From positions 81,080-145,079 of the forward strand of contig CAZEBU010000002.1 in NCBI GenBank assembly GCA_964510435.1: DNA of 64,000 nt, read 5' to 3'. This DNA comes from an uncultured Candidatus Saccharibacteria bacterium (GTDB lineage: Bacteria; Patescibacteriota; WWE3; UBA101185; UBA10185). A model generated the notes under the pieces. The model was not told the origin of the DNA. It searched no databases and saw nothing but the letters and a program-made list of their open reading frames with translations. Below are positions 3,607-14,798 of this stretch, one piece after another. The position numbers and the translations under genes were made by a program. How positions within the stretch are numbered: the first letter of the stretch is position 1; each line of letters opens with the position of its first letter.

Positions 3607-4023
3607 ATGGCAAAAGTAGACTCACAAGACAATTTGGTTATGACCTCAGGAAAAAGGAAAACAGCCATCGCCAGAGTATTCCTTTACCGAGAAAAAGGTG
3701 ATATTTTTGTAAATGACAAAAAGATTGATGATTACTTTACCAAAGAAATTGAACATATTGCTTGGAAAAAACCCTTTCACATCATAGGTGTTTCACATCC
3801 TGATACTCAGTTTAGAGGTACCATTAAAGTTTTTGGTTCAGGGAAATCAGCCCAACTTGATGCAATAACACACGGAATCTCCAGAGCGTTAGCCAAAATG
3901 GACGACGAATATAGGACAGCGCTAGGAAAAGCCGGTTTATTGACCAGAGATCCCCGAATGGTGGAACGAAAAAAGTATTATTTAAGAAAAGCTAGGAAAC
4001 GTCCACAGTATTCAAAGAGATAA
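3607..4023 (+). CDS. rpsI: 30S ribosomal protein S9
   Basis: 138 aa; the C-terminus ...RKARKRPQYSKR is diagnostic of S9. Confidence 0.9.
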   Translation: MAKVDSQDNLVMTSGKRKTAIARVFLYREKGDIFVNDKKIDDYFTKEIEHIAWKKPFHIIGVSHPDTQFRGTIKVFGSGKSAQLDAITHGISRALAKMDDEYRTALGKAGLLTRDPRMVERKKYYLRKARKRPQYSKR

Positions 4024-4299
4024 CCTATCCTTTAACAACTCTTTTAAATGTAGTAATTCACTTTCTATATTATTAATCTTTGATCTCAACTCGTACTTAT
4101 GGACATCATTCATATTAACAATAGGTGTATTGTAGATCGAGGAAATCTTATCCAAAACTTTTAAAGGAGGGCTTGTTCTCCCCCTCTCATAAGCAGAAAT
4201 AGTTTTCCCGGAAAGTCCTATTCTCTTAGCAAAACGATCCTGGGAAAGATTGTAACCATCTCTTATTTTCTTTATTTTTTTTCCAATATGTTCGGGCAT
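4012..4299 (-). CDS. XRE-family helix-turn-helix transcriptional regulator
   Basis: 95 aa; N-terminal HTH_3 pattern (IKKIRDGYNLSQDRFAKRIGLSGKTISAYERGRTSP). Divergent from the RadC-like gene. Confidence 0.7.
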   Translation of the reverse strand: MPEHIGKKIKKIRDGYNLSQDRFAKRIGLSGKTISAYERGRTSPPLKVLDKISSIYNTPIVNMNDVHKYELRSKINNIESELLHLKELLKDRLSL

Positions 4300-4328
4300 G
4301 GCAGTTATCTAAATTAATTAGAAACTAA

Positions 4329-4366
4329 CATATTGTAACAAGTATTGCAATAACCTATATTGCATA
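4329..4366. promoter_or_regulatory. divergent promoter/operator region with three TATTG(Y)AA direct repeats
   Basis: tattgtaa (about 4331), tattgcaa (about 4343) and tattgcat (about 4358), spaced 12-15 bp apart in the 68-bp gap between the XRE gene and the RadC-like gene. attgcaat is itself palindromic. Confidence 0.35.
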
Positions 4367-4367
4367 T

Positions 4368-5084
4368 ATGTACGGAAAACTGACCTTAAGGGATTTCGAT
4401 AAGGGAAATCAGCCTCGCGAAAGACTCGTAAATAAAGGCTCGGAAGCTCTTTCAGATGTTGAGCTGATGGCCATAATATTAAGATCCGGAGGAAAACACA
4501 AATCAGTTTTGGATATTTCCTACGAACTGCTAAAAAAACACGGCAACCTGGTTAATATATTCCAATGTGATCTGGAACAGCTGGCAAAGGAGAAGTACAT
4601 CGGGCGAGTGAAAGCCATAACTATAATAGCTGTCTTAGAAATATCTAAAAGAATACATTTGGCAAATAAGAAAGAGTATAGGTACATTCACAAACCCAAA
4701 GATGCCTTCCAAATAGTAAAGAAAGAACTTTTTGGTAAACGGCAAGAACATCTTTACTTAATTTCTCTTGATACTAGAAAGAGGTTTCTTTCTAAGGATC
4801 TGATCTGTATCGGATCTGTTAATGAAACGTTGATTCCTGTTAGGGAAATAATACAAAAAGCATTACTAAAGGACGCCGTCAATATTATCCTTGTGCATAA
4901 CCACCCCTCTAAGGATCCCAGTCCCAGTAAGGAGGATCTAGTAATTACCGAAAAAATTGCAAAAGCATGCCAACTAACCGGTTTGTCGCTTTTGGATCAC
5001 ATTATTACGGCTGACAATGAGTTTGCTAGTATAAAAAGTCTAGATTTATTTAATAGTGAAAAGTTAAGCAATGAAAGGAGGTGA
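4368..5084 (+). CDS. radC: RadC-like JAB-domain protein (UPF0758)
   Basis: 238 aa; N-terminal HhH-like region and a C-terminal JAB/MPN domain with HNHPSxxxxPSxxD (HNHPSKDPSPSKED). Confidence 0.85.
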   Translation: MYGKLTLRDFDKGNQPRERLVNKGSEALSDVELMAIILRSGGKHKSVLDISYELLKKHGNLVNIFQCDLEQLAKEKYIGRVKAITIIAVLEISKRIHLANKKEYRYIHKPKDAFQIVKKELFGKRQEHLYLISLDTRKRFLSKDLICIGSVNETLIPVREIIQKALLKDAVNIILVHNHPSKDPSPSKEDLVITEKIAKACQLTGLSLLDHIITADNEFASIKSLDLFNSEKLSNERR

Positions 5085-5088
5085 AGAA

Positions 5089-5220
5089 ATGAAAACAAAG
5101 TTAATTGTGATTTCCAGTTTGGCAATCTTAATACTAATTCTGGCCGGTGTGTCGTGGGCTGCATTCGGAGATAGAAGTAAGATCTTAGGGAGCAGTTTTT
5201 CTGTGGGGAGTGTTACCTAA
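5089..5220 (+). CDS. small predicted signal-peptide/membrane peptide (43 aa)
   Basis: ATG 4 nt after the radC stop, preceded by a ggaggtgaag RBS. Encodes MKTKLIVISSLAILILILAGVSWAAFGDRSKILGSSFSVGSVT. Hand-counted; overlaps the 3' end of the convergent ORF 5185-5598. Confidence 0.35.
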   Translation: MKTKLIVISSLAILILILAGVSWAAFGDRSKILGSSFSVGSVT

Positions 5221-5598
5221 TTCAATAGTAGATACCTTTATCTCCCCATCAATCAAAATATGGTCTTTATAGACAACAAGTTTCTTTACCCTAGACCTCA
5301 GTAGTTCTCTTTTTAGTAGACCAGATGCATTTCCCTCCCTTATTAGTTCATTGTACTTATCAATAAACTCCTCTCTGGCTTTTGTTAACGCGCTTTTCCT
5401 AACTTTGAAAATTTTAAATTCTCCCAATTCACCTTTTCTTTCTCCTAGCTGTGTGGATAGAGACTCACGTTCTTTACTAATTTCTTTCAGTTTAGTATCA
5501 AGGAGGTCTTCTCTAAATCTCTTTTTTACAAATTCCTCAACAGGGTAAGTACAATCAAATAGGAATAAGTGTGTCGAGATGAAGATTATAGGGTACAC
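5185..5598 (-). CDS. hypothetical coiled-coil protein
   Basis: 137-aa ORF, charged and helical (KLKEISKERESLSTQLGERKGELGEF...). I recognise no family. Confidence 0.4.
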   Translation of the reverse strand: MYPIIFISTHLFLFDCTYPVEEFVKKRFREDLLDTKLKEISKERESLSTQLGERKGELGEFKIFKVRKSALTKAREEFIDKYNELIREGNASGLLKRELLRSRVKKLVVYKDHILIDGEIKVSTIELGNTPHRKTAP

Positions 5599-5724
5599 GA
5601 AACTAGAAAATATCTCAAAAAAACAGCTTTAAACGTCGTTTAATAAATGATATACGACATGCTCACAAATAGTTCTTTTATAGATAAGCTGATTTTAGTG
5701 CTAGTGAGGTTATAATCGTGTTTT

Positions 5725-6441
5725 TTATGATACTGGCTTAATAACATCAGCATATGGTGCAACAAATTGAGTACCTTCATCGGAGACAATTGGTGTTTCT
5801 TCTTTAATCGTTTTCCTGTTTTCTTCAGCAAGTTCCTGCTTAGAAATATCATAGTAAATCTCTCCTCCACTTTTAAGGTAATCACTTTTAACTTTTTTAT
5901 CACTTATATCGATAATGATTTTAACCTTTGATAGAAGATCAAGAGATAAAATGTCTGCCTTTTTACACTTCTTTTGTAGATTACCAATGTGCACGCTGTA
6001 GACATCCAGTAGGCTTTCGTTTACTTCTTTATCTTTAAGCGAGGTCATTATTGCATTTACTTCTTCTTCAAGATATTGGGTATCAGAGTTTATAGTCTCT
6101 ATTAAAGAATACAAATTTGAGTAATCATTAATGATATCAATACTCAGAATTTTAAGGCTTAAACCTGAGCTTAAAAATAATTTATAAAACCTGAGCATAA
6201 GTCTAATTACATTATCTTCATGATCGAAGGAAGCTTCTAAAGTTCTTAGGTTTCTGGACATATTTACTCGTAGTGGTATTAGCTCGTGTTCAATTTGGAC
6301 AATTGTGTTCCTATGATCAATATACTTATCTCTACGTAATTCTCTTAAGCGTCTTTTAGATTCAAAGTGATCTGACCATATACCAGCAAATAAACCACCT
6401 GAAAAAGCTGATAATAATATTAATATGGCATCTTCCTTCAT
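5725..6441 (-). CDS. hypothetical membrane-anchored protein
   Basis: 238 aa; one N-terminal TM helix (AILILLSAFSGGLFAGIW) then a helical soluble domain. I recognise no family. Confidence 0.5.
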   Translation of the reverse strand: MKEDAILILLSAFSGGLFAGIWSDHFESKRRLRELRRDKYIDHRNTIVQIEHELIPLRVNMSRNLRTLEASFDHEDNVIRLMLRFYKLFLSSGLSLKILSIDIINDYSNLYSLIETINSDTQYLEEEVNAIMTSLKDKEVNESLLDVYSVHIGNLQKKCKKADILSLDLLSKVKIIIDISDKKVKSDYLKSGGEIYYDISKQELAEENRKTIKEETPIVSDEGTQFVAPYADVIKPVS

Positions 6442-6527
6442 ATATGTATATTATATGTCAGTTTAGTTGTAATATATCCTTACAGGCACCACGCTAGTTC
6501 ATTAATGCAACAATAGTGATTGTGGTA

Positions 6528-6556
6528 TTTACAAAATTATAAATGGTTGCTAAAAT
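6528..6556 (+). promoter_or_regulatory. sigma70-like promoter (-35 TTTACA, 17-nt spacer, extended -10 TGcTAAAAT)
   Basis: tttaca at 6528-6533 and tgctaaaat at 6548-6556. The predicted transcription start is near 6563, at the base of a structured region. Confidence 0.45.
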
Positions 6557-6562
6557 GTAAGC

Positions 6563-6655
6563 GTGCTAGTCGGGCGAAAGCCCTTCTTCAGCTAAGACAT
6601 GTCTAAGCCGAGAGACTAGCACACTAAGAGCGCCTTTTCTGGCGCTTCTTTTTAT
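6563..6655 (+). ncRNA. candidate small RNA with a three-way-junction fold, ending in an intrinsic terminator
   Basis: A 9-bp outer stem gtgctagtc/gactagcac (6563-6571 / 6614-6622) encloses hairpins gggcGAAAgccc and gctaagacatgtctaagc. A GC stem agagcgcc..ggcgct (6627-6647) plus a cUUUUUaUU tract follows. Sits directly downstream of the promoter above and is antisense to the last ~11 codons of ORF 6624-7061. Confidence 0.4.
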
Positions 6656-7061
6656 TAGATTTCATTTTATTCTTATTCATAACACTTCCAAGTTTGTAAA
6701 TATTGTTATAGATTCCTATTTTTTCAACGACTACTTTTATCTTCATTCTTGGGGATACTGGATGAATAAGCTCATAACTTATAAGGTCTTTCATCTTACC
6801 CTTATATTTTTTCTTTCTCCTTCTTATTTCTGAAATACTCTCACAATTTTCAATGACCTCTGGTGCGTATTGTAAACACCTAAGTCTCATATATTGATCG
6901 CTAATATTTCTAGGCATTCTATTTGAGTCGTAAATGAGATGATTAAATCCTTCTGATGTGAAATGAACGTCAGATTTTAGAACAGGACAATAAACCTTTT
7001 TAATTTTTTTGTAGTCTTTACGCTTTTCTTCAATTAATTTCTGTATATCTTTCGTGATCAA
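6624..7061 (-). CDS. hypothetical highly basic protein
   Basis: 145 aa; a cysteine-containing N-terminal half and an extremely K/R-rich C-terminus (KNKMKSNKKKRQKRRS). No family recognised. Confidence 0.45.
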   Translation of the reverse strand: MITKDIQKLIEEKRKDYKKIKKVYCPVLKSDVHFTSEGFNHLIYDSNRMPRNISDQYMRLRCLQYAPEVIENCESISEIRRRKKKYKGKMKDLISYELIHPVSPRMKIKVVVEKIGIYNNIYKLGSVMNKNKMKSNKKKRQKRRS

Positions 7062-7313
7062 TTATCTGTCTTTCTTATAGTACTTTTATAAAACAATAAG
7101 CTGGTCTACTACCAATCCCTTGCTTTTTTAACGGTAACTCTCTTTAGAAATTCCTGCAAAAGTCGCTATTTTGCGCCCATAAAGTAGCACTCCAAGGTCT
7201 TAGGTGTCAAGTGGTGATTTTCTAGGTACGCGCAACAATTAAACATAACATCCAGGAGTCCCGTTAAATTTATTGTAAGCAAGCTTTTATAACCATCGAT
7301 AGTGGTATATACC

Positions 7314-7814
7314 TCACTCCGAGTTTATATTTTGCCAAAATATCTTTGGGTGGGGATATCCACCATAAATGGCGGCACTCTTATAAGCCTTTTTTACATT
7401 CTTTAAACCCTGCGTAGTCAAAACTTTGGTTAAACGCCCCCTGTACAGTTCTCTCGAAAGCTTTGGTTTAAACACAGGCATGCAAATCCAGTCCAGTATT
7501 TCCTCAATCAATGTATGCTCTTCATCCCTAAGATTTCCTGCTTTAATAGAGTAGCCTTTATTAGTCTTTTCAGTTTTATCACTATATATAGTCTTGTTAG
7601 AGTTCATCCTGTGGTACGTTCTATGGGGAATCTTTGATTCATTCTGTGGTGCAAATCCAATCACAGAGTCCACTTCATTTATCGTTACAACAGTTCCCTT
7701 TCTTGAAGGGCTCTGCTCTATTAACTGGTACACGTTTTCTAGTCTTTTAAGTGCCTTGCCTACAGTTCTGTGGTCACATCCAAACTCTCTGGCTATTTCT
7801 CTCCAACCACACAC
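7314..7814 (-). CDS. N-terminal HTH-domain protein (possible mobile-element or phage remnant)
   Basis: 166 aa with a GTG start. Residues 5-25 (REIAREFGCDHRTVGKALKRL) form a classic HTH like those of transposase OrfA or terminase small subunits. An in-frame stop lies 2 codons upstream, so the N-terminus is intact. Confidence 0.45.
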   Translation of the reverse strand: MCGWREIAREFGCDHRTVGKALKRLENVYQLIEQSPSRKGTVVTINEVDSVIGFAPQNESKIPHRTYHRMNSNKTIYSDKTEKTNKGYSIKAGNLRDEEHTLIEEILDWICMPVFKPKLSRELYRGRLTKVLTTQGLKNVKKAYKSAAIYGGYPHPKIFWQNINSE

Positions 7815-8000
7815 GCACTACCCACGTTTTAGGGTGTATACCTTACCCGCACTTTTAACAGCACCAGCTGAAATTCTTGTTCTAAGAAGTAAAAGGGTAT
7901 AAATATGCTTAGCTAGATAGTCTTCCCCAAATACACTATTTAAATTCGAGGGAATTGGGATTTTATAACTTGATTTAATTATGTCAATATTATTCATCTA

Positions 8001-8189
8001 TCAACTCTTCTCGGTCAAAATAATGTACCCCTTTCCCAAACATGCGTGGCACACTCTTCTATCAAAGGAAACAGTCCCAAACCCATTACAGACCAGGCAT
8101 TTATGCGGTTTTAAATCATTTCTATTTTTCATCGTTTTATCCATCTTTTTTATTTCGCTTTCAACAAAAAGGCTGACATATACACCCAA
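8001..8189 (-). CDS. small zinc-ribbon protein (CxxC...CxxC)
   Basis: 62 aa; KCLVCNGFGTVSFDRRVCHACLGKG carries two CxxC pairs. Could be a real small protein or spurious. Confidence 0.3.
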   Translation of the reverse strand: MGVYVSLFVESEIKKMDKTMKNRNDLKPHKCLVCNGFGTVSFDRRVCHACLGKGYIILTEKS

Positions 8190-8494
8190 TTCCTTGGATA
8201 GATATACCGGCTTTTCAGCAGGAACTCTGCTGTCACCTTTTTTACTGCAGCATTATAGACATGTTTTTTAAGTTTATGCAAATGCCGTATTTTGCTTTAA
8301 CCACAGTAAATCATAAAATATATTATTTTAAAATATTTCAAGATTAATAATTTTTTAATTTTTGGGAAGTACGATGTTGGAATGAAAAATACAAGGAAAC
8401 TCCTTAAGTTAATTGATTTACTAGCTCACCTAAACAAGAAAACAGGTAAAAGATACTATGTTTTAGTAACAATAGATGGTTCCTGGTAAAGAAA

Positions 8495-9064
8495 CTACAC
8501 GCCAATTCCTAGTATGTAAACGGGAATATCTATATCTGAAACTCCTCTGGCATTTAAATCCCATACAAACTGTTCAAAATACGACACGCCAGTAGACATC
8601 TTTGCCGCCAACTCTTTCACAGGAACTATCTCAACTCCGGCATCAATATGCCCTAAGTTACTAAAAATGGTCATTTTAGCGCATACATTGTAAACCATAA
8701 AAGAATACTTACCGAATTGCACCTCAACACCTAGCTTATTTTTTATAAAGTCCATTTCCCTGTATGCATTATTAATTTTTATTGGAGAATACCCGTCTAT
8801 AAAGTATTCTGTCGGGTAATCGCATTTCTCTCTTATTCCATATTGCCACCCTTTAGATTTAAAGATTCTTTTAAACTCGTTATTCAATTTTCGTGGAGAG
8901 TACAGTGTCTTACCTGGCATAGTTTTTTCTTTGCTCTCCTTGCTAAAACTCTTTAAAGCATCGTTTAAACCGATTGCTTCTTCAATCTCTTTTAACTCTT
9001 GACTATAATTATTTTTTACATAATCCTCGCCATTAGCGAAGGAATACCTTCCAAATATTTTCAT
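8495..9064 (-). CDS. type II restriction endonuclease, BamHI/BglII/BstYI family
   Basis: 189 aa. IDGY...GVEVQFGKYSF...LGHIDAGVEIVPVKELAAK follows the BamHI pattern (D94 ... GMEFETGNIS ... LKHGEIDLAIILMPIKQLAYY). A Gln occupies the position of BamHI Glu113, as in BglII. Sits 2 nt downstream of a methyltransferase gene. Confidence 0.6.
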   Translation of the reverse strand: MKIFGRYSFANGEDYVKNNYSQELKEIEEAIGLNDALKSFSKESKEKTMPGKTLYSPRKLNNEFKRIFKSKGWQYGIREKCDYPTEYFIDGYSPIKINNAYREMDFIKNKLGVEVQFGKYSFMVYNVCAKMTIFSNLGHIDAGVEIVPVKELAAKMSTGVSYFEQFVWDLNARGVSDIDIPVYILGIGV

Positions 9065-9066
9065 CT

Positions 9067-10005
9067 TTATTTAATCCAACTTATTGGTACCTTCGATACC
9101 TTTTCTTTTCCTGTTGGTTTGTATACTGGTTTACCTAGAGGCCTTATTCTTAATTTTCCAGCTCTTAATTTAGCAATTCTCTTCTCGGCTAAGCTAACAT
9201 ATTTTGCTTCCATTTCCATACCTAATGCATCCCTATTATGCATAATAGCACCAATAACCGTGGAACCCACACCCATAAACGGGTCGTAAACCAAATCTCC
9301 TTCGTTTGTTAATGCTAGAACACATCTCTGAACCAATTCCACGGGAAATTGACAGGGATGACCAGTCTTTTCAGGATGATTGCTTTTTACATTAGGTATT
9401 TCCCAAATTTCCTTCTCCCAATCCCCACAAATTATCTCCCAAAAATCTGAAGGATTCTTTCCTCTTGGATTACCAGAAGGTTTACCTAAATTTTTACCTT
9501 TATAGGAAAGCTTTCCTGGGTACTTTGCAGGAACTCTTACATTATCAAGGTTGAACACATACTCTTTATTCTTATCATTTTTTGTGAACCATAATATTGT
9601 CTCGTACCTACCCGAAAACCTTTTACTAGCGTGGAGTCCGTGACCAAAATGCCAGATTATTCTATTCCTTAGATGAAATCCAACGTCTTTAAAAATATTA
9701 TAAAAATAAATATCTAAGGGAAAAACTTCGCCTTTTTTGATATAGTTTCCAACCTCCCATGCTAAACTGCCGCCGTCTCTTATTTTGGAGTAAATTGCTC
9801 GAGCAAAATCTTTATAAGGATGAAGGTACTTTTCAAAATCTTTTCTTTTCTCATATTCCTTTCCAATATTGTATGGTGGAGAGGTTATAAGTAATTGTAT
9901 GCTATCATCTTCCAATTTTTTTACATGTTTGAATGTATCAACTTGGAGAATATCGTATTTACCAAATTTTTTTTGCATGTTTAATCCCAACTTTGACTGT
10001 GCCAT
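9067..10005 (-). CDS. DNA methyltransferase, beta-class (SPPY motif IV before FxGxG motif I), probable N4-cytosine or N6-adenine type II MTase
   Basis: 312 aa; LLITSPPYNIGKEY (motif IV) followed later by DPFMGVGST (motif I). This order matches the N4C/N6A beta group that includes M.BamHI and M.PvuII. Confidence 0.85.
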   Translation of the reverse strand: MAQSKLGLNMQKKFGKYDILQVDTFKHVKKLEDDSIQLLITSPPYNIGKEYEKRKDFEKYLHPYKDFARAIYSKIRDGGSLAWEVGNYIKKGEVFPLDIYFYNIFKDVGFHLRNRIIWHFGHGLHASKRFSGRYETILWFTKNDKNKEYVFNLDNVRVPAKYPGKLSYKGKNLGKPSGNPRGKNPSDFWEIICGDWEKEIWEIPNVKSNHPEKTGHPCQFPVELVQRCVLALTNEGDLVYDPFMGVGSTVIGAIMHNRDALGMEMEAKYVSLAEKRIAKLRAGKLRIRPLGKPVYKPTGKEKVSKVPISWIK

Positions 10006-10151
10006 AAACCTATGTTATCACACACACAAAACTATCAATTATATACCGGGTCATTACTAAACAATGAGGTTGTGAATTTGTGATTTATATTTTCAAAAAA
10101 TAAGGAATACCAATACATTCATTATAGTTACTTTCTTGGTAGGAAGTTTCC

Positions 10152-11432
10152 CTAAAACGCATCCAATTCAGCAAAGGACGGATTATTGACAATTTCCTCT
10201 ACAGCATCGCTATCAAATTTTTCGTTCTGCCAAAAACCCCGAAGTTCCAAATCTTTTGTTGCAAGGGGGTATATCCATGCAGTAAACACTTTATCTGCTT
10301 TATCAATAAATATTATCCTTACCTCCACACCTCCAGCAAGAGAACCACTAAGTGGAAACGTGACAAATTTGCTTCTATAATAACTATTGTCAAAATTCTT
10401 CAAACCAGTAATTTCGGTTTCTAAACCAACTATAGCTAGATGTGACACGCCGTCATTACCCCCGTCAAGATAATTATCTAAGGCTTCTCTCAAGAAAGTC
10501 ACATACTCCAAGTCACTAATATTCTTTCTCCATTCTAAGTATTCTTCGTAATCGCCTATAGCTGGTTGTGGAAAGGTATCACCAGCATTATAAATATCTT
10601 CAATCTCTATTTTTGGTTGCTGTGCAGTTAACCCATTAGCTTCGCTAGGCTCAGTGTGCTCTTTAGCCCCGTTAGAATCATAAAACTTAAGGTCAGTCGG
10701 AAGATTGAATTTATTAGGCTCATAGGTAGTAATTTCTAGCAATATTGATATGCCTGTGACTAAAGTGACAAGTACTAAAGATACTTCTAAAAATCTTAGA
10801 ATTTTTCTTCTTCCCCAGAAATTATTAAAAAACTTGAATGCTAATATAAACAAAGTAAACGATGCCAGTAATAACGGTAATATTTCTTCAGGAATACTTG
10901 GTTTGGGTGAGTACCCTATAAAAGCACCTATAATTGCGTATAAAATCAGTAAAAAGAGAAGTAAAACTAACCAAAATAATACCTTGACTATTTCGTCGGT
11001 TTTCCTATAGGAGAAAGCCAGACGCGTATATATTTTCTGTATTAATTCCTTAGTATATCTAAAACCATACAACTTAATTAATAATATTGTTCCTATTAAA
11101 AATGTTATCATTCTCCAAATATTATCTGAGAACCAAGCGCTATCTGAGAATTTAAACTCTGCAATCGGATTTATAACCACAATTAACAATATATAAACTC
11201 TTACCCAAGTCATGTTTTTACTCTGATATTCTTTATATGCAAGGTAGATTAGTGATAAGAAAATAATTATCTTGAAGTTATAGAATGTATTACTATTTGA
11301 AAGGTAACTAGGCTGTGTGGCCAACAACCAAATAAATAAAAATAACAAAACTAGTGGTAAACTTTTCAGTATAACCGAGTCAGACTTTATCATTGATAGT
11401 ATTTTCTTATTGTAAGACTCTTTTAGTTCCAT
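10152..11432 (-). CDS. hypothetical polytopic membrane protein with C-terminal soluble domain
   Basis: 426 aa; about 7 hydrophobic helices in the first ~240 aa, then an acidic soluble domain. No family recognised. Confidence 0.55.
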   Translation of the reverse strand: MELKESYNKKILSMIKSDSVILKSLPLVLLFLFIWLLATQPSYLSNSNTFYNFKIIIFLSLIYLAYKEYQSKNMTWVRVYILLIVVINPIAEFKFSDSAWFSDNIWRMITFLIGTILLIKLYGFRYTKELIQKIYTRLAFSYRKTDEIVKVLFWLVLLLFLLILYAIIGAFIGYSPKPSIPEEILPLLLASFTLFILAFKFFNNFWGRRKILRFLEVSLVLVTLVTGISILLEITTYEPNKFNLPTDLKFYDSNGAKEHTEPSEANGLTAQQPKIEIEDIYNAGDTFPQPAIGDYEEYLEWRKNISDLEYVTFLREALDNYLDGGNDGVSHLAIVGLETEITGLKNFDNSYYRSKFVTFPLSGSLAGGVEVRIIFIDKADKVFTAWIYPLATKDLELRGFWQNEKFDSDAVEEIVNNPSFAELDAF

Positions 11433-11685
11433 GGTATCCCAAACTGATTATTTTACTTATCTCTCTAATTAATCCTTATCTTTTTTACCTACTGCTCTTC
11501 GGAGTTCCTTTTTAGCAAGTGGAAAACTTATTATTCTTGATATTTTGTACTTTACTTCGAAATATTAACCACTTTTTTCAAGAAAAAATACAAATCCTTC
11601 CCACAAAATCATTTTACATCATAAACTATATGTTTACTTCCACACTGTAAGGTATAGAAATAAACTCAATTAGGCTGCTCTTTCC

Positions 11686-12153
11686 GTGGGGAGCGCAGAT
11701 ATCAAGCTTTTGGAAGATCTCGCAGCAGGTACCAATCCGGAAAACCTCGTAGACGAGCTGCCCGGACCGTCCTTTAGTGGGCTCCATCCCAATTGGACAG
11801 AAGATTATCCGCTAAAAATCTATAATAACGCTACGGGTCATATTCAACTAACCTCCAACGCCGACTATGAAACTATCAATGATCCGGATGATTTAAGACA
11901 AATAATCTATGTTGAACCCATTAATTGGAGTGATACAGATAACAATGGCTTGGTCGAAGAAGGAGAACTCGGTTCTTCTTTTGGCAGGAAGACCATCATC
12001 AAGTGGAAAACAGAAGGTTTTGACCTAAGCTCTATGAGCTCGGGTTCGGTGAAGGGAATGGTTTTAAGATTCTCCACGGATAATGTGTCGGACACAAAAC
12101 AGGGAAAGAGCGCTATTTTCGATTTCGTATTCGACTCTCTAGGACTGGAATAA
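11686..12153 (+). CDS. hypothetical protein
   Basis: 155 aa with a GTG start; an in-frame stop lies 5 codons upstream. Acidic, no recognisable motif. Confidence 0.4.
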   Translation: MGSADIKLLEDLAAGTNPENLVDELPGPSFSGLHPNWTEDYPLKIYNNATGHIQLTSNADYETINDPDDLRQIIYVEPINWSDTDNNGLVEEGELGSSFGRKTIIKWKTEGFDLSSMSSGSVKGMVLRFSTDNVSDTKQGKSAIFDFVFDSLGLE

Positions 12154-12224: not shown

Positions 12225-14798
12225 GTGCTGATACTGCCCAAATTGATCTATAACTTTATCTATTGGTGGATCTATGAGATACCAAGAAACACTTTTAATG
12301 TTCTTAAAAAGATCACCTATTTTGTAAACAACGAATTTTCTTTTACCTTAAACATCAAACTTATTTTCACACCTCTCTACGGCGACAACACAATCATAGG
12401 CAGGGTAATTGGTTTTATCTTAAGAATAATTTTTATAGTTGTCGGATTTTTCTTTGTAGGATTTCTAGCCTTAGCTTCTGTGATCTTACCAACCTCTTGG
12501 TATCTCCTACCACTTATCATGTTCTATTATCTTGGCTTTTGGTCCCTACCTATCGTCGCAGCTATGTTTTTATACCATATCTACATCACCATTGATCAAC
12601 CTGATAAAAGAGTGGAAAATGTGGATGAAGAAAACAAGTTATTTTCTTTTAGGCCTCAAGTAAAGGAAATAATTAGGAAAATAAAGAAAAACCCCTCACA
12701 GGCTATAGCAAGTTTTATGAAATCTCCCGAAATTAACTCCTTGTTGGAAAAAGCAGAACTTACCGATATCAATTTCCCTGCAAAAATCGGCCAAGTAGAG
12801 AAACTCTCCACTAAAAAAGTAGAGGTTTCATCCTTTGTCTACGGCAAAAAGAACAGATCCAGATATGTAGAAAAAGAGCATTTACTTCTCGGTTTGCTTT
12901 CCTCCATTCCCGGTATAGATAATATCCTTTCGGAATTTGGCATTGAACTTAAAACTATTGAAGAAACCGCTTTGTGGATTGTCGGGAAAAGAGAGGATGA
13001 ATCCAAGCTCTACTTCTGGCAGGAAGATTACGAAACATCAACCATATCAGGTTTCGGTCATGGCCTCATCGGCAGAGTTACGCCCCATCTTGATGCAATT
13101 TCAGTTGATTATACTAAAATGGCTAAGAAAGGCCGGCTTAAAAACATTATTGGCAGGGAAGACGAAATTAAGAAAATTGCTCAATTGCTTGGCGGTTCTA
13201 GAGAAAATGTCTTACTGATCGGAGAACCCGGATGTGGAAAAACCTCTATCGTTATGGGCATGGCGCACAGAATTATGCATGGGACAAAATACAAAACTTT
13301 GCAAAACAAAAGGATCGTTAACTTACAAACCGGAAGCCTGATTGCGGGGTCAAAAACAACCGGTGAAATTGCCGAAAAACTAAAAGACGCACTTGATGAT
13401 GCTATCGGTTCTGGAGATATTATCCTCTTTATTGACGAGATTCATGCACTAGTTGGTTCTGTTAACGAAGGAGAGGGTTACTCCACAATATTCTCTATCT
13501 TAGAACCTCATTTATCCTCAAATCAGCTGCAGTTTATAGGGGCTACAAGCATAGAAAACTATCGTAAGTATATTGAATCCATAGGTTCTTTTTCAAGACT
13601 ATTTGAAATTGTAGAAATCCCTGAATCCAACCAAGAAGATACCTTGGAAATACTTAAATACATAGCTGATCTGCAAGAAGTTACTTTTGGTGTCAGAATA
13701 ACCATGCCTGCACTCTTAACAATTTTAAAACTCTCAGGAAAACTAATTCATAACCGAGTCCTTCCCGATAAAGCCATAGATGTGCTCATCAGATCCGTAG
13801 CCTTAGTCAATGATTCAACTAGGGTAGTCACTTCTAAAGTTGTGGAACAAGAAATATCCGAAATGACGCATATTCCCGTTACGGCAGTTACAGAAGAGGA
13901 GTCAGAAAAGCTTCTTAACATCTATAGAGAGATGAAAAAGTATGTGGTAGGACAAGATCACGCTCTAGAAAAAATCTCCTCAGCTTTAAAAAGAGCCAGA
14001 GTGGGAATAAGAGATGAGAAAAAGCCTATCGCCAGCTTTTTGTTTGTAGGTACAACAGGCGTAGGAAAAACAGAAACAGCAAAAACTCTCGGTAAGGTTT
14101 ATTTTGGAGATGAAACTAATATGATCCGCTTGGATATGAGTGAATATCAACACGTTGACAGCATCGAAAAATTAATTGGTTCCTCAGACGGAAAAACAAG
14201 AGGTCTGCTGACAGAGGCAGTTCGGTCAAAACCTTTTGCCGTGATACTTTTAGACGAAATTGAAAAGGCGCACCATAAAATTTTGCTTACCTTCCTGCAG
14301 GTATTGGACGACGCCCGCTTAACTGACTCCACAGGAAGAACAGTTGACTTCACCAACACAATTATTATTGCCACCAGCAACGTTGGGACAAAGCAAATTC
14401 AAAGCATTACTGAAAAAAGTGGGTCATACGAGGAAATCGAGATCGTCGCCTTAAAAGCGGTAAGAGAAAACTTCGCACCGGAGTTTCTTAATAGATTTAC
14501 GGATATTATTGTCTATAAACCCCTAGATCTAGAACACGTTCGAAAAATTGCCCGCATTTTACTATATGACGTGAAAGGGCGTACTCAAGAGCAAAACGTC
14601 AAGATTTCCTTCTCAGAGGAATTGATCGATGAATTAGTTAAAAGAGGCTACAATCCACAGTGGGGTGCCCGACCTATGGCCAGGGTAATAGAAGATTCCG
14701 TGGAAACTCATATAGCCGAGAAGCTTCTTACCAAGGAGATAAAGAGGGGGGACGTCGTCAAACTTGGCATAGAAGTGTTTGATGAGCGTCCCCATTAA
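12225..14798 (+). CDS. ClpA/ClpB-like double-AAA+ ATPase with N-terminal transmembrane segment
   Basis: 857 aa. NBD1 Walker A is GEPGCGKTS with Walker B ILFIDEIH; NBD2 Walker A is GTTGVGKTE with Walker B ILLDEIE and a sensor region. There is a single Clp_N-like repeat (EHLLLGLLSS). The first ~130 aa hold 3-4 hydrophobic helices. No long M-domain and no IGF/IGL ClpP-docking loop. Confidence 0.85.
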   Translation: MLILPKLIYNFIYWWIYEIPRNTFNVLKKITYFVNNEFSFTLNIKLIFTPLYGDNTIIGRVIGFILRIIFIVVGFFFVGFLALASVILPTSWYLLPLIMFYYLGFWSLPIVAAMFLYHIYITIDQPDKRVENVDEENKLFSFRPQVKEIIRKIKKNPSQAIASFMKSPEINSLLEKAELTDINFPAKIGQVEKLSTKKVEVSSFVYGKKNRSRYVEKEHLLLGLLSSIPGIDNILSEFGIELKTIEETALWIVGKREDESKLYFWQEDYETSTISGFGHGLIGRVTPHLDAISVDYTKMAKKGRLKNIIGREDEIKKIAQLLGGSRENVLLIGEPGCGKTSIVMGMAHRIMHGTKYKTLQNKRIVNLQTGSLIAGSKTTGEIAEKLKDALDDAIGSGDIILFIDEIHALVGSVNEGEGYSTIFSILEPHLSSNQLQFIGATSIENYRKYIESIGSFSRLFEIVEIPESNQEDTLEILKYIADLQEVTFGVRITMPALLTILKLSGKLIHNRVLPDKAIDVLIRSVALVNDSTRVVTSKVVEQEISEMTHIPVTAVTEEESEKLLNIYREMKKYVVGQDHALEKISSALKRARVGIRDEKKPIASFLFVGTTGVGKTETAKTLGKVYFGDETNMIRLDMSEYQHVDSIEKLIGSSDGKTRGLLTEAVRSKPFAVILLDEIEKAHHKILLTFLQVLDDARLTDSTGRTVDFTNTIIIATSNVGTKQIQSITEKSGSYEEIEIVALKAVRENFAPEFLNRFTDIIVYKPLDLEHVRKIARILLYDVKGRTQEQNVKISFSEELIDELVKRGYNPQWGARPMARVIEDSVETHIAEKLLTKEIKRGDVVKLGIEVFDERPH

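What the first reader, a model, noticed from the sequence alone, without database searches (positions are those of the whole stretch)
4012..10005. Accessory/defence-like island directly downstream of the rplM-rpsI operon
Between rpsI and the ClpA/B-like gene the content switches from core genes to a cluster typical of mobile or defence islands. It contains a divergent XRE regulator/RadC-JAB pair (common cargo of integrative elements and anti-restriction modules) and a small secreted peptide. It also contains three orphan ORFs, an N-terminal-HTH protein of transposase or terminase-small-subunit type, and a small zinc-ribbon ORF. It ends with a complete BamHI/BglII-family type II restriction-modification pair. 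No integrase or tRNA flanks it, so it may be an old, decayed insertion. The orphan genes next to the restriction-modification pair are the most likely place in this window for an undescribed defence function.
Basis: partly seen in the sequence, partly recalled or inferred. Interest (0 to 1): 0.65.

Follow-up and report, generated by a model that had tools for sequence, protein, structure and literature searches.

The report
R-M island splitting a fibre-protein gene

Summary
An accessory island is present, but its borders are 5211-11693, not 4012-10005.

- **Not part of the island.** The XRE/RadC pair lies in conserved core synteny. Five divergent relatives share rpsI, XRE, RadC, a 193-aa secreted protein, ClpB-like and prfB in that order.
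- **The "small secreted peptide".** It is the 5' stump of that 193-aa gene, which is annotated TasA/camelysin-like. Its 3' part lies at 11686-12153. The joined protein matches many intact homologues at or near full length.
- **The insert.** It is 6,483 bp long. It is flanked by an identical 8-bp core (GTGGGGAG) within a 17-bp imperfect repeat.
- **The cargo.**
  - An M->R cassette whose endonuclease is BstYI-like (RGATCY).
  - A DnaD-like replication gene broken by one TAG.
  - A DnaJ-type zinc finger.
  - A DUF6804 membrane protein.
  - Three orphan ORFs.
- **No recombinase.** No intact recombinase is present.
- **Site avoidance.** The island has no RGATCY site, and 4.66 kb of it has no GATC, whereas the host shows no depletion.
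- **Orphans and the R-M pair.** The orphans do not travel with the R-M cassette in 106 related loci. The PADLOC hit of the 238-aa ORF looks spurious, but some of its relatives sit next to defence genes.

Verdict: a decayed integrative element, a new member of a known kind, of modest interest.

The parts
4012..4299 (-). XRE-family HTH regulator. It is a conserved core neighbour of rpsI and lies OUTSIDE the island.
   Evidence: Pfam HTH_3 E 2e-14. An orthologue sits in the same position in L001, L017, L018 and L019. It is 55% identical to the L001 copy.
4368..5084 (+). RadC/UPF0758 JAB protein. It is a conserved core gene and lies OUTSIDE the island.
   Evidence: Pfam RadC E 2e-36. It holds the same position in L001, L002, L017, L018 and L019. 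Its codon usage is native, z = -0.5.
5089..5220 (+). 5' fragment (41 native codons, then V-T-stop from island DNA) of the disrupted 193-aa gene. That gene encodes a protein with a SipW-type signal peptide and is annotated TasA/camelysin-like.
   Evidence: Joined to 11694-12153, it matches many intact ~193-aa homologues at or near full length, up to 75% identity.
5196..5212 (.). attL: a 17-nt imperfect direct repeat. It contains the identical 8-bp core GTGGGGAG at 5203-5210.
   Evidence: Sequence read. It matches 11679-11695 at 14 of 17 positions.
5216..5226 (.). Left arm (CCTAATTCAAT) of an inverted motif. In a circularised element it would face 11664-11674 across a 24-nt spacer centred on the GT of the core. 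This is a putative attP dyad.
   Evidence: sequence. The arms are 9/11 complementary. This is an inference, not a statistical test.
5185..5598 (-). 137-aa orphan ORF at the island edge. Its last 8 codons and stop lie in core/host DNA. In a circular form it would be 151 aa and would span attP. It may be the coiled-coil C-terminal remnant of a recombinase.
   Evidence: Only a weak PHROG hit to phrog_95 integrase, E 0.0065, profile positions 493-567 of 651. BLASTP to the L008 serine recombinase is not significant but is colinear with residues 465-536. No homologues other than itself. Circular-form translation.
5725..6441 (-). 238-aa orphan: an N-terminal helix taken to be a membrane anchor, followed by a long helical bundle. 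It belongs to a small family found almost only in Patescibacteria-type genomes.
6624..7061 (-). 145-aa orphan with a sub-threshold LPD3-like match (polyvalent-protein-associated domain).
   Evidence: Pfam PF18798 E 2.4e-5, 24.9 bits against a cut-off of 27. No PADLOC, PHROG or NCBIfam hits.
7314..7997 (-). DnaD-like helicase-loader / replication-initiator winged-HTH gene. One in-frame TAG (7818-7820) splits it into 59-aa and 166-aa ORFs, so it is probably a pseudogene.
   Evidence: In-frame stop seen. For the joined protein, PHROG scores rise from E 1.7e-3 to 8.9e-3 up to 8e-9 to 3e-7, with alignments that cross the stop. The TAG is present in independent contigs L004 and L005.
8001..8189 (-). 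62-aa zinc-finger protein of DnaJ/anti-TRAP type, with two CxxCxGxG motifs.
   Evidence: NCBIfam RtpA E 2.4e-6, below its cut-off. Pfam DnaJ_CXXCXGXG E 2e-3.
8495..9064 (-). Type II restriction endonuclease, BstYI-like. The predicted specificity is RGATCY or a subset of it.
   Evidence: PDB BstYI 1sdo E 2e-31. D105/E114/Q116 align with BglII D84/E93/Q95. PADLOC REase_II E 5e-34.
9067..10005 (-). Beta-class N4/N6 DNA methyltransferase with an SPPY motif. Its stop codon lies 2 nt before the start of R.
   Evidence: Pfam N6_N4_Mtase E 1e-49. PADLOC MTase_II E 6e-68. M.RsrI E 1e-25. M lies upstream of R on the same strand in 86 of 97 related cassettes.
10152..11432 (-). 426-aa multi-pass membrane protein (DUF6804) with a C-terminal soluble domain of unknown function.
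   Evidence: Pfam PF20619 E 1.9e-7. Identical copy in L003.
11664..11674 (.). Right arm (ACTCAATTAGG) of the putative attP inverted motif.
11679..11695 (.). attR: the second copy of the 17-nt imperfect repeat. The identical core GTGGGGAG is at 11686-11693.
   Evidence: The junction is also present in independent contig L003 at 99.97% identity.
11686..12153 (+). 3' fragment (152 native codons from 11694) of the disrupted 193-aa gene. It has no frameshift or internal stop.
   Evidence: It is 77-78% identical to L001 and L002.
7060..11715 (.). A 4.66-kb stretch with no GATC at all. It lies inside a 6.5-kb stretch (5186-11714) with no RGATCY.
   Evidence: The next longest GATC gap in the window is 1,229 bp. 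Between 8.5 and 14 GATC are expected from composition.

Best explanation
**What it is.** The locus is a 6,483-bp horizontally acquired integrative element (5211-11693). It is now probably immobile. It inserted into codon ~41 of a conserved 193-aa secreted protein gene annotated TasA/camelysin-like. The host is a WWE3/Patescibacteria bacterium.

**How it got there (inferred).**
- Integration was most likely site-specific recombination between an element attP and a gene-internal attB.
- The two sites share an identical 8-bp core (GTGGGGAG) within a 17-bp imperfect match.
- The recombinase has since been lost or truncated.
- The 137-aa edge ORF, whose frame spans the putative attP, may be its C-terminal remnant.

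**What it does now.**
- The working cargo is a two-gene M->R type II restriction-modification cassette.
- The methyltransferase has an SPPY motif, so it is probably an m4C enzyme. It would protect host RGATCY sites.
- The BstYI-like endonuclease keeps its D-X8-E-X-Q catalytic motif. It would cut unmethylated incoming DNA.
- R starts 2 nt after the stop of M, so the two genes are probably co-translated.

**The rest of the cargo.**
- A DnaD-like replication gene, inactivated by a TAG.
- A DnaJ-type zinc finger.
- A DUF6804 membrane protein.
- Three orphans. These are leftovers or morons of a phage- or plasmid-like ancestor.

**What lies outside it.** The XRE/RadC pair is resident core DNA, not part of the element.

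**Shown versus inferred.**
- Shown: the insertion, its borders, the repeats, the gene identities, the site avoidance and the synteny.
- Inferred: the recombination mechanism, the enzyme specificity and activity, and the order of decay events.
For: **Split gene**
- The two fragments join into a 193-aa protein.
- Many intact ~193-aa Patescibacteria/WWE3 homologues match it at or near full length, up to 75% identity. Thirteen of the first fourteen full-length hits cover 100% of the query.
- The conserved GSSFSVGSADIKLL motif is restored exactly.

**Empty sites in relatives**
- L001, L002, L017, L018 and L019 all have rpsI-XRE-RadC-193aa-ClpB-prfB-FtsK with none of the island genes.

**Junctions**
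- The junction repeats were read.
- Independent assemblies reproduce both junctions at 99.97-100% identity. L126 and L127 cover attL, and L003 covers attR.

**R-M cassette**
- BstYI E 2e-31 with catalytic residues kept.
- MTase E 1e-49.
- BstYI recognises RGATCY (PMC2731914).
- M lies upstream of R on the same strand in 86 of 97 related cassettes, 26 of which are on predicted viral contigs.

**Foreign signature**
- There are 0 RGATCY sites in the island, against about 5 expected from its composition and 8.9 per equal-sized window elsewhere.
- Only windows overlapping the island are site-free.
- A 4.66-kb stretch has no GATC, against a next-longest gap of 1.2 kb.
- GC is 0.34 in the island and 0.39 in the rest of the window.
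- In the host, RGATCY makes up 32% of all GATC. In genomes that carry related cassettes it is only 11-13%. This argues for a recent arrival.

**Decay**
- An in-frame TAG splits a DnaD-like gene. PHROG E improves to 8e-9 when the two parts are joined.
- No recombinase domains were found anywhere in the island.
Against: - No recombinase is demonstrably present, so the integration mechanism is inferred from the repeats alone.
- An 8-bp perfect repeat could also be a transposition target duplication.
- The serine-recombinase reading of the 137-aa ORF rests on a coiled-coil-rich hit of E 0.0065 and a non-significant BLASTP. The PDB gives nothing.
- Codon usage of the island genes does not differ from the host, with all z within +/-2. 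The donor was therefore similar in composition, or the island is not very recent.
- No empty site or circular form of the same strain was found in metagenome or viral collections.
- The specificity and activity of the R-M enzymes are untested.
- Related cassettes do not avoid GATC, so the GATC-free stretch is not explained by the R-M alone.
Confidence: 0.8

Rival explanations
1. First reader's version. This is one island that starts right after rpsI (4012) and ends with the R-M pair (10005). The XRE/RadC pair is island cargo, and the small ORF is a genuine secreted peptide.
For: - XRE-RadC pairs are common on mobile elements (general knowledge).
- GC falls slightly from about 4000 onward.
Against: - XRE, RadC and the full-length 193-aa gene occupy the same positions in five relatives. 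Their ClpB is only ~59% identical to the window's.
- The 'peptide' is the first 41 codons of that gene.
- The DUF6804 gene beyond 10005 lies inside the repeats.
Confidence: 0.03
2. The element is still mobile and uses an unrecognised recombinase encoded by one of the orphan ORFs. One candidate is the 137/151-aa edge ORF whose frame spans attP. Others are the 145-aa or DUF6804 protein. Excision would restore the fibre-protein gene, as with intervening elements such as skin or SPbeta.
For: - Precise excision would rebuild the reading frame exactly.
- Both gene halves are free of frameshifts and stops.
- The edge ORF overlaps the putative attP.
- Several ORFs have no known family.
Against: - None of the ORFs has a catalytic recombinase signature.
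- No attP or attB sequence was found in metagenome or viral collections.
- The replication gene carries a nonsense codon in all assemblies.
- All sampled contigs show the integrated form.
Confidence: 0.07
3. The island arrived by transposition. The 8-bp GTGGGGAG is a target-site duplication. It was later stranded when the transposase was lost.
For: - A perfect 8-bp direct repeat sits exactly at the junctions.
- 8-bp duplications are typical of several IS/Tn families (general knowledge).
Against: - There are no terminal inverted repeats at the very ends. The CCTAATT motif lies 5 nt from one end and 11 nt from the other.
- The similarity extends beyond the 8 bp into element DNA, 14/17, as expected for attP/attB.
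- There is no transposase remnant.
Confidence: 0.1
4. The orphan ORFs next to the R-M pair form an undescribed defence system that works with or beside the R-M.
For: - The 238-aa ORF hit PADLOC PDC-M08B at E 8e-6.
- Relatives of the 238-aa ORF lie next to several defence-type genes: a type IIG R-M plus PLD-SNF2 helicase (L012), a DNA methyltransferase (L007) and a PLD nuclease (L010).
Against: - PDC-M08B is matched by only 1 of 19 family members, and no M08A partner is present.
- No conserved neighbour exists across 11 loci.
- None of the orphans occurs in any of 106 loci carrying related M-R cassettes.
- The fold is a generic helical bundle.
- Other relatives sit among housekeeping genes such as YchF.
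Confidence: 0.15

Closest known systems
BstYI / BglII / BamHI family type II restriction-modification systems
   Same: - The endonuclease aligns to BstYI over both halves (E 2e-31). It keeps the D-X8-E-X-Q catalytic motif shared with BglII.
- It is paired with a beta-class N4/N6 methyltransferase placed directly upstream.
- Genomes that carry related cassettes are two-fold depleted in RGATCY.
   Different: - It is only ~36% identical to BstYI, so the exact specificity is unknown.
- No controller (C) protein gene is adjacent. From my own recollection, the BglII and BamHI systems have one.
- This copy and its flanking cargo lack GATC entirely, which related cassettes do not.
Gene-disrupting integrative ('intervening') elements such as B. 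subtilis skin in sigK and SPbeta in spsM. These are decayed prophages integrated by large serine recombinases (general knowledge).
   Same: - It is inserted inside a protein-coding gene with both halves intact.
- It has short identical cores at the junctions.
- Its mobile-element content is degenerate.
- The putative attP has dyad symmetry over ~46 bp.
   Different: - No recombinase gene is retained, so programmed excision is unlikely.
- There is no evidence of excision.
- The host is a CPR bacterium with no known developmental programme.
R-M cassettes as selfish mobile modules within genomic islands (Kobayashi-type view, general knowledge)
   Same: - It is a compact M-R pair found in many unrelated contexts, including viral contigs.
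- It sits within a compositionally distinct insert.
- It avoids its own site.
   Different: Here the cassette sits in a larger composite element. The neighbouring genes are not shared with any of the 106 related cassette loci.
PADLOC candidate system PDC-M08 (component B)
   Same: The window's 238-aa ORF gives E 8e-6 to one PDC-M08B model over ~100 residues.
   Different: - 18 of 18 relatives do not match.
- There is no A component.
- The match lies in a helical, low-information region, so the ORF is not filed as a member.

Membership tests
Type II R-M system, BstYI/BglII-family endonuclease | PD-(D/E)XK endonuclease with the family's D-X8-E-X-Q catalytic residues | tested here: met
   D105/E114/Q116 align with BglII D84/E93/Q95 and the equivalent BstYI residues. 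BstYI E 2e-31. Pfam Endonuc-BglII E 5e-21.
Type II R-M system, BstYI/BglII-family endonuclease | Cognate DNA methyltransferase encoded next to it | tested here: met
   N6_N4_Mtase E 1e-49 lies directly upstream. The same M->R order is found in 86 of 97 related cassettes.
Type II R-M system, BstYI/BglII-family endonuclease | Recognition of RGATCY (or AGATCT/GGATCC), with methylation protecting that site | not testable with these tools
   Only indirect evidence. There is no RGATCY in the island. RGATCY is 11-13% of GATC in genomes with related cassettes, against ~25% expected. The SPPY motif suggests m4C, which is an inference.
Integrative mobile element / genomic island | Present in this genome but absent from the same site in relatives | tested here: met
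   Five syntenic loci lack it and carry the intact target gene.
Integrative mobile element / genomic island | Flanking direct repeats (att sites) | tested here: met
   An identical 8-bp core within a 14/17 imperfect repeat sits at both junctions.
Integrative mobile element / genomic island | Integrase/recombinase gene | tested here: not met
   No Resolvase, Recombinase, Phage_integrase or transposase domain was found in any island ORF. tblastn with a CPR serine recombinase finds nothing significant.
Integrative mobile element / genomic island | Composition different from the host | tested here: inconclusive
   GC is 0.34 against 0.39, and GATC/RGATCY avoidance is striking. Synonymous codon usage is not deviant.
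Large serine recombinase (for the 137-aa ORF) | N-terminal resolvase catalytic domain, recombinase domain and zinc-ribbon domain | tested here: not met
   All three are absent. The ORF is only 137 aa.
Large serine recombinase (for the 137-aa ORF) | C-terminal coiled-coil region homologous to the family | tested here: inconclusive
   phrog_95 E 0.0065 at profile positions 493-567 of 651. BLASTP to the L008 recombinase gives E 0.5-0.7 but is colinear. No PDB hit.
DnaD-like helicase loader / phage replication initiator (7314-7997) | N-terminal winged-HTH matching the family profiles over a continuous ORF | tested here: inconclusive
   The profile match is good once the two parts are joined: phrog_2514 E 8e-9, phrog_7498 2e-7, phrog_186 3e-7. 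The ORF is interrupted by a TAG, and only the N-terminal ~150 residues match.
PADLOC PDC-M08 candidate defence system (238-aa ORF) | Family-wide match to the PDC-M08B model, plus an adjacent PDC-M08A | tested here: not met
   Only 1 of 19 family members matches. No M08A hit among the island ORFs.
TasA/camelysin superfamily (the disrupted target gene) | SipW-type signal peptide and the TasA-like jelly-roll fold | tested here: inconclusive
   - Sources name homologues 'SipW-dependent-type signal peptide-containing protein' and 'camelysin'.
- The AlphaFold model has pLDDT 89.7 and is a beta-sandwich.
- Foldseek lists the TasA fibre 8aur (prob 0.99, E 8e-3, TM 0.45) and archaeal TasA-like pili. 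No match reaches E < 1e-3.
- There is no Pfam or NCBIfam hit.

The most novel reading that the evidence does not exclude
The 238-aa protein has an N-terminal helix taken to be a membrane anchor, a helical bundle and a conserved HRNTxVQIEHE motif. Its family has ~30 sequence clusters, found almost only in Patescibacteria-type genomes.

This family could be a new single-gene defence or exclusion determinant that rides on CPR mobile and defence islands. Alternatively, and less likely, the island could be mobilised by an unrecognised small recombinase, namely the 137/151-aa ORF that spans the putative attP.
Probability: 0.15. Interest if true: 0.55.

Novelty: new member of a known kind. Interest (0 to 1): 0.3.

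Why it matters
- **A clean worked example.** It shows horizontal acquisition of a restriction-modification system in a candidate-phyla-radiation bacterium. The junctions are known to the base pair, the target gene is identified, and a recent-arrival signature is present: the element avoids the enzyme's site and the host does not.
- **What it shows about this lineage.** The XRE/RadC pair after the ribosomal operon is core here. A conserved fibre-like surface protein gene can be knocked out by an island.
- **Follow-up value.** It flags a small CPR-restricted membrane protein family that recurs beside defence genes.
- **Limits.** None of this overturns current understanding. The value lies in annotation and in candidates for follow-up.

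Tried and rejected
- **Close relatives of island proteins in viral contigs.** The wHTH, 238-aa and 137-aa proteins gave no relatives.
- **Large protein database.** Searches with the joined wHTH and the 137-aa ORF found only themselves.
- **137-aa ORF.** The PDB search gave only coiled-coil noise. tblastn against phages gave nothing useful.
- **tblastn with an intact CPR serine recombinase (L008) against the window.** The best hit, E 0.057 at 22.2-22.8 kb, is the Lon-like AAA gene and not a recombinase.
- **Degenerate att pattern matching attL, attR, attB and attP.** It had 0 hits in metagenome and viral collections.
- **Rfam over 3.5-12.5 kb.** Nothing reached a credible score.
- **Promoter and terminator scan.** The counts were no more than chance.
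- **Repeat finder.** Its default output did not list the junction repeat, which is too short and imperfect. I found it by reading the sequence.
- **PDC-M08B membership.** Rejected.
- **Alternative genetic code for the island.** I considered TAG recoding. Only one in-frame stop is seen, and several island genes end in TAG, so I rejected it.
- **Assembly artefact.** Rejected, because both junctions recur in independent assemblies.

Full report
**1. What is in the sequence**

| Coordinates | Strand | Call |
|---|---|---|
| 4012-4299 | - | XRE-type HTH |
| 4368-5084 | + | RadC/UPF0758 |
| 5071/5089-5220 | + | 49-aa ORF with a signal peptide |
| 5185-5598 | - | Orphan, 137 aa |
| 5725-6441 | - | Orphan, 238 aa |
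| 6624-7061 | - | Orphan, 145 aa |
| 7314-7814 | - | HTH protein |
| 8001-8189 | - | 62-aa zinc finger with two CxxCxGxG motifs |
| 8495-9064 | - | BglII-family endonuclease |
| 9067-10005 | - | N6_N4 methyltransferase |

Two further genes lie beyond the reported end:
- a 426-aa DUF6804 membrane protein at 10152-11432(-);
- a 155-aa ORF at 11686-12153(+).

The 64-kb window holds no tRNA.

**2. The real borders**

- The 49-aa ORF ends ...ILGSSFSVGSVT*, and the 155-aa ORF begins (V)GSADIKLLEDL....
- Joined at the shared S-V-G-S codons, they give a 193-aa protein.
- A search of 5.8 billion proteins returned 210 relatives. Many are intact ~193-aa Patescibacteria/WWE3 proteins that cover the query at or near full length, with up to 75% identity. 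Thirteen of the first fourteen full-length hits cover 100%.
- The alignment runs straight across the joint. The family consensus there is GSSFSVGSADIKLL.
- At the DNA level, the left fragment follows the intact genes of two relatives up to ...TCTGTGGGGAG. The right fragment follows them from GTGGGGAGCGCAGAT....
- The identical core GTGGGGAG lies at 5203-5210 and again at 11686-11693. It sits inside a 17-nt imperfect repeat (14/17 matches; 5196-5212 and 11679-11695).
- The insert is therefore 6,483 bp, at 5211-11693.
- All nine of its ORFs are on the minus strand.

**3. Synteny**

- Five relatives were examined (L001, L002, L017, L018, L019). Their ClpB is only ~59% identical to the window's where compared.
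- All five have RadC, the intact 193-196-aa gene, ClpB-like, prfB and FtsK in that order. The four contigs that extend further upstream (L001, L017, L018, L019) also show S13-S11-S4-RpoA-L17-L13-S9 followed by XRE(-).
- tblastn finds none of the island proteins in these loci.
The island genes are absent from every empty site.
- Both junctions recur in independent assemblies at 99.97-100% identity:
  - attL in L126 and L127 (runs SRR6439359 and SRR6439358);
  - attR in L003 (GCA_006243215.1).
- This is therefore not a mis-assembly.

**4. The target gene**

- Sources name homologues 'SipW-dependent-type signal peptide-containing protein' and 'camelysin'.
- An AlphaFold model built from 56 sequences has pLDDT 89.7. 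It shows a signal helix followed by a beta-sandwich.
- Foldseek lists the TasA fibre (8aur) and archaeal TasA-like pili and cannulae at probability 0.97-1.0. E-values are only ~3e-3 to 8e-3 and TM-scores 0.34-0.52.
- A TasA-like extracellular fibre subunit is likely but not proven.
- Both halves are free of stops and frameshifts.

**5. The R-M cassette**

- The endonuclease matches BstYI (PDB 1sdo) at E 2e-31. BglII gives E 0.01 and BamHI E 0.68.
- D105, E114 and Q116 align with the BglII catalytic residues D84, E93 and Q95.
- BstYI recognises RGATCY (PMC2731914).
- The methyltransferase is beta-class. Its best solved relative is M.RsrI at E 1e-25. Its motif IV is SPPY, which from general knowledge points to m4C.
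- R starts 2 nt after the stop of M.
- A scan with an R/BstYI alignment retrieved 106 loci, 80 from metagenomes and 26 from predicted viral contigs.
- M was found in 98 of these loci. It lies upstream of R on the same strand in 86 of 97 compact cassettes.
- None of the other island proteins occurs in any of these loci.
- The cassette is thus an independent, widely travelled module.

**6. Site avoidance**

- The window has 90 RGATCY sites. None lies between 5186 and 11714.
- Of 57,516 windows of island length, the only site-free ones overlap the island. About 5 sites are expected from the island's own composition, giving P about 0.006.
- There is no GATC at all from 7060 to 11715, a stretch of 4,660 bp. 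The next-longest GATC gap in the window is 1,229 bp. Composition predicts 8.5-14 GATC there.
- No other 4-bp palindrome behaves this way in that segment.
- The left 1.85 kb of the island (137-, 238- and 145-aa ORFs) has normal GATC density (6 observed, 5.4 expected). This suggests a mosaic of two modules.
- In the host, RGATCY makes up 32% of GATC, so there is no avoidance. In genomes that carry related cassettes it is 11-13%, against ~25% expected.
- This supports an RGATCY-type specificity for the family and a recent arrival in this host.
- Related cassettes are not GATC-free. The total absence of GATC here is therefore a peculiarity of this element that I cannot fully explain.
- Island GC is 0.34 and the rest of the window is 0.39. 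Synonymous codon usage does not differ.

**7. Other cargo**

*DnaD-like replication gene*
- The 59-aa ORF at 7818-7997 and the 166-aa ORF at 7314-7814 are in the same frame, separated by one TAG.
- Joined, their PHROG matches to DnaD-like helicase loaders improve from E 1.7e-3 to 8.9e-3 up to 8e-9 to 3e-7. The alignments cross the stop.
- This is one replication-initiator-like gene carrying a nonsense codon.
- The TAG is present in all assemblies. Those assemblies are nearly identical, so this says little about selection.

*The 238-aa ORF*
- It has 30 relatives among 1.84 billion representatives.
- They share a hydrophobic N-terminal helix, taken to be a membrane anchor, and a conserved HRNTxVQIEHE motif.
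- The model is confident (pLDDT 90), but it is only a generic helical bundle.
- Its PADLOC PDC-M08B hit is not shared by any of 18 relatives.
- Eleven genomic loci carry a relative. Most are labelled CPR/Microgenomates-type and three are labelled 'uncultured Gammaproteobacteria'. They have no conserved neighbour.
- Some neighbours are suggestive:
  - an intact large serine recombinase two genes away in L008;
  - a DNA methyltransferase in L007;
  - a PLD nuclease in L010;
  - a type IIG R-M enzyme plus a PLD-SNF2 helicase in L012.
- Other loci have housekeeping neighbours.

*The 145-aa ORF*
- It has only a sub-threshold LPD3 match.

**8. How it got there**

- No island ORF has a recombinase or transposase domain.
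- A CPR serine recombinase used as a tblastn probe finds nothing real in the window.
- The junction repeat extends into element DNA, as expected for attP/attB rather than a target duplication.
- In a circularised element, the motifs ACTCAATTAGG and CCTAATTCAAT would face each other (9/11 complementary). They would be separated by 24 nt centred on the GT of the core. That layout resembles a serine-integrase attP, but I could not test it statistically.
- The 137-aa edge ORF runs across attL into core and host DNA. It would be 151 aa in the circular form.
- Its only similarity is a coiled-coil-rich PHROG hit to the C-terminal part of large serine integrases at E 0.0065. An alignment to the L008 recombinase is not significant but is colinear.
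- I regard 'recombinase remnant' as possible, at roughly one in three.
- A consistent but speculative history has three steps:
  1. A GATC-free element (int, rep, zinc finger, R-M, DUF6804) integrated into the fibre gene.
  2. The GATC-containing 238/145-aa segment later replaced most of int.
  3. The rep gene then picked up a stop codon.

**9. Verdict**

- There is a defence-carrying accessory island without an integrase or a tRNA target. It is 5211-11693, it excludes XRE/RadC, and it splits a conserved gene.
- The orphans show no link to the R-M pair.
- It is a new member of a known kind: a decayed integrative element with a type II R-M cassette.
- Interest is modest. The sharpest points are the exact junctions, the GATC-free signature, and the CPR-restricted 238-aa family that recurs near defence genes.

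Noticed in passing
window 7060-11715: A 4,660-bp stretch has no GATC, while the next-longest gap in the 64 kb is 1,229 bp. It covers the replication gene, zinc finger, R, M and DUF6804. Related M-R cassettes elsewhere have normal GATC density, so the R-M alone does not explain it.
   Followed up: partly
window 5211-7059 versus 7060-11693: The left 1.85 kb of the island has normal GATC density (6 observed, 5.4 expected) and the right 4.6 kb has none. This suggests the island is a mosaic of two modules with different histories.
   Followed up: partly
loci L020-L125 (related M-R cassettes): In genomes and contigs carrying BstYI-like cassettes, RGATCY makes up only 11-13% of all GATC, against ~25% expected and 32% in this window's host. 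This looks like family-wide avoidance of the predicted recognition site.
   Followed up: partly
window 12225-14798: The ClpA/B-like AAA+ protein (857 aa) has a hydrophobic N-terminal region of ~120 residues that looks membrane-spanning. Proteins of similar length (854-868 aa) hold the same position in all five relatives. A membrane-anchored ClpB-like protein may be typical of this lineage.
   Followed up: no
L008 5542-7308 and L007 5572-7309: In L008 an intact 588-aa large serine recombinase lies two genes from a relative of the 238-aa ORF. In L007 the corresponding recombinase is split into 248-aa and 310-aa ORFs. This may be another decaying island in a Daviesbacteria genome.
   Followed up: partly
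L012 1236-7849: A 1097-aa type IIG R-M enzyme and a 1107-aa PLD-SNF2 helicase (DrmD-like) sit directly beside a relative of the 238-aa ORF in a Patescibacteria genome.
   Followed up: partly
L016 7377-8708: One relative of the 238-aa protein is 443 aa long. It carries an extra ~208-residue hydrophobic N-terminal domain with no Pfam match.
   Followed up: no
L001 5414-6039: One relative has two small minus-strand ORFs (102 and 105 aa, no Pfam) between the 193-aa gene and ClpB. The spacer downstream of the fibre gene may be a minor variable spot.
   Followed up: no
window 5180-5185 and 11715-11720: The nearest RGATCY sites on either side of the island are both AGATCT. Both lie inside the split gene, 18 and 21 nt from the core repeat. 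This may be coincidence.
   Followed up: no
window 5075-5091: A strong AGGAGG ribosome-binding site 8 nt before the ATG at 5089 suggests the fibre gene starts at 5089 (MKTKL...). That agrees with the homologues and not with the listed start at 5071.
   Followed up: partly
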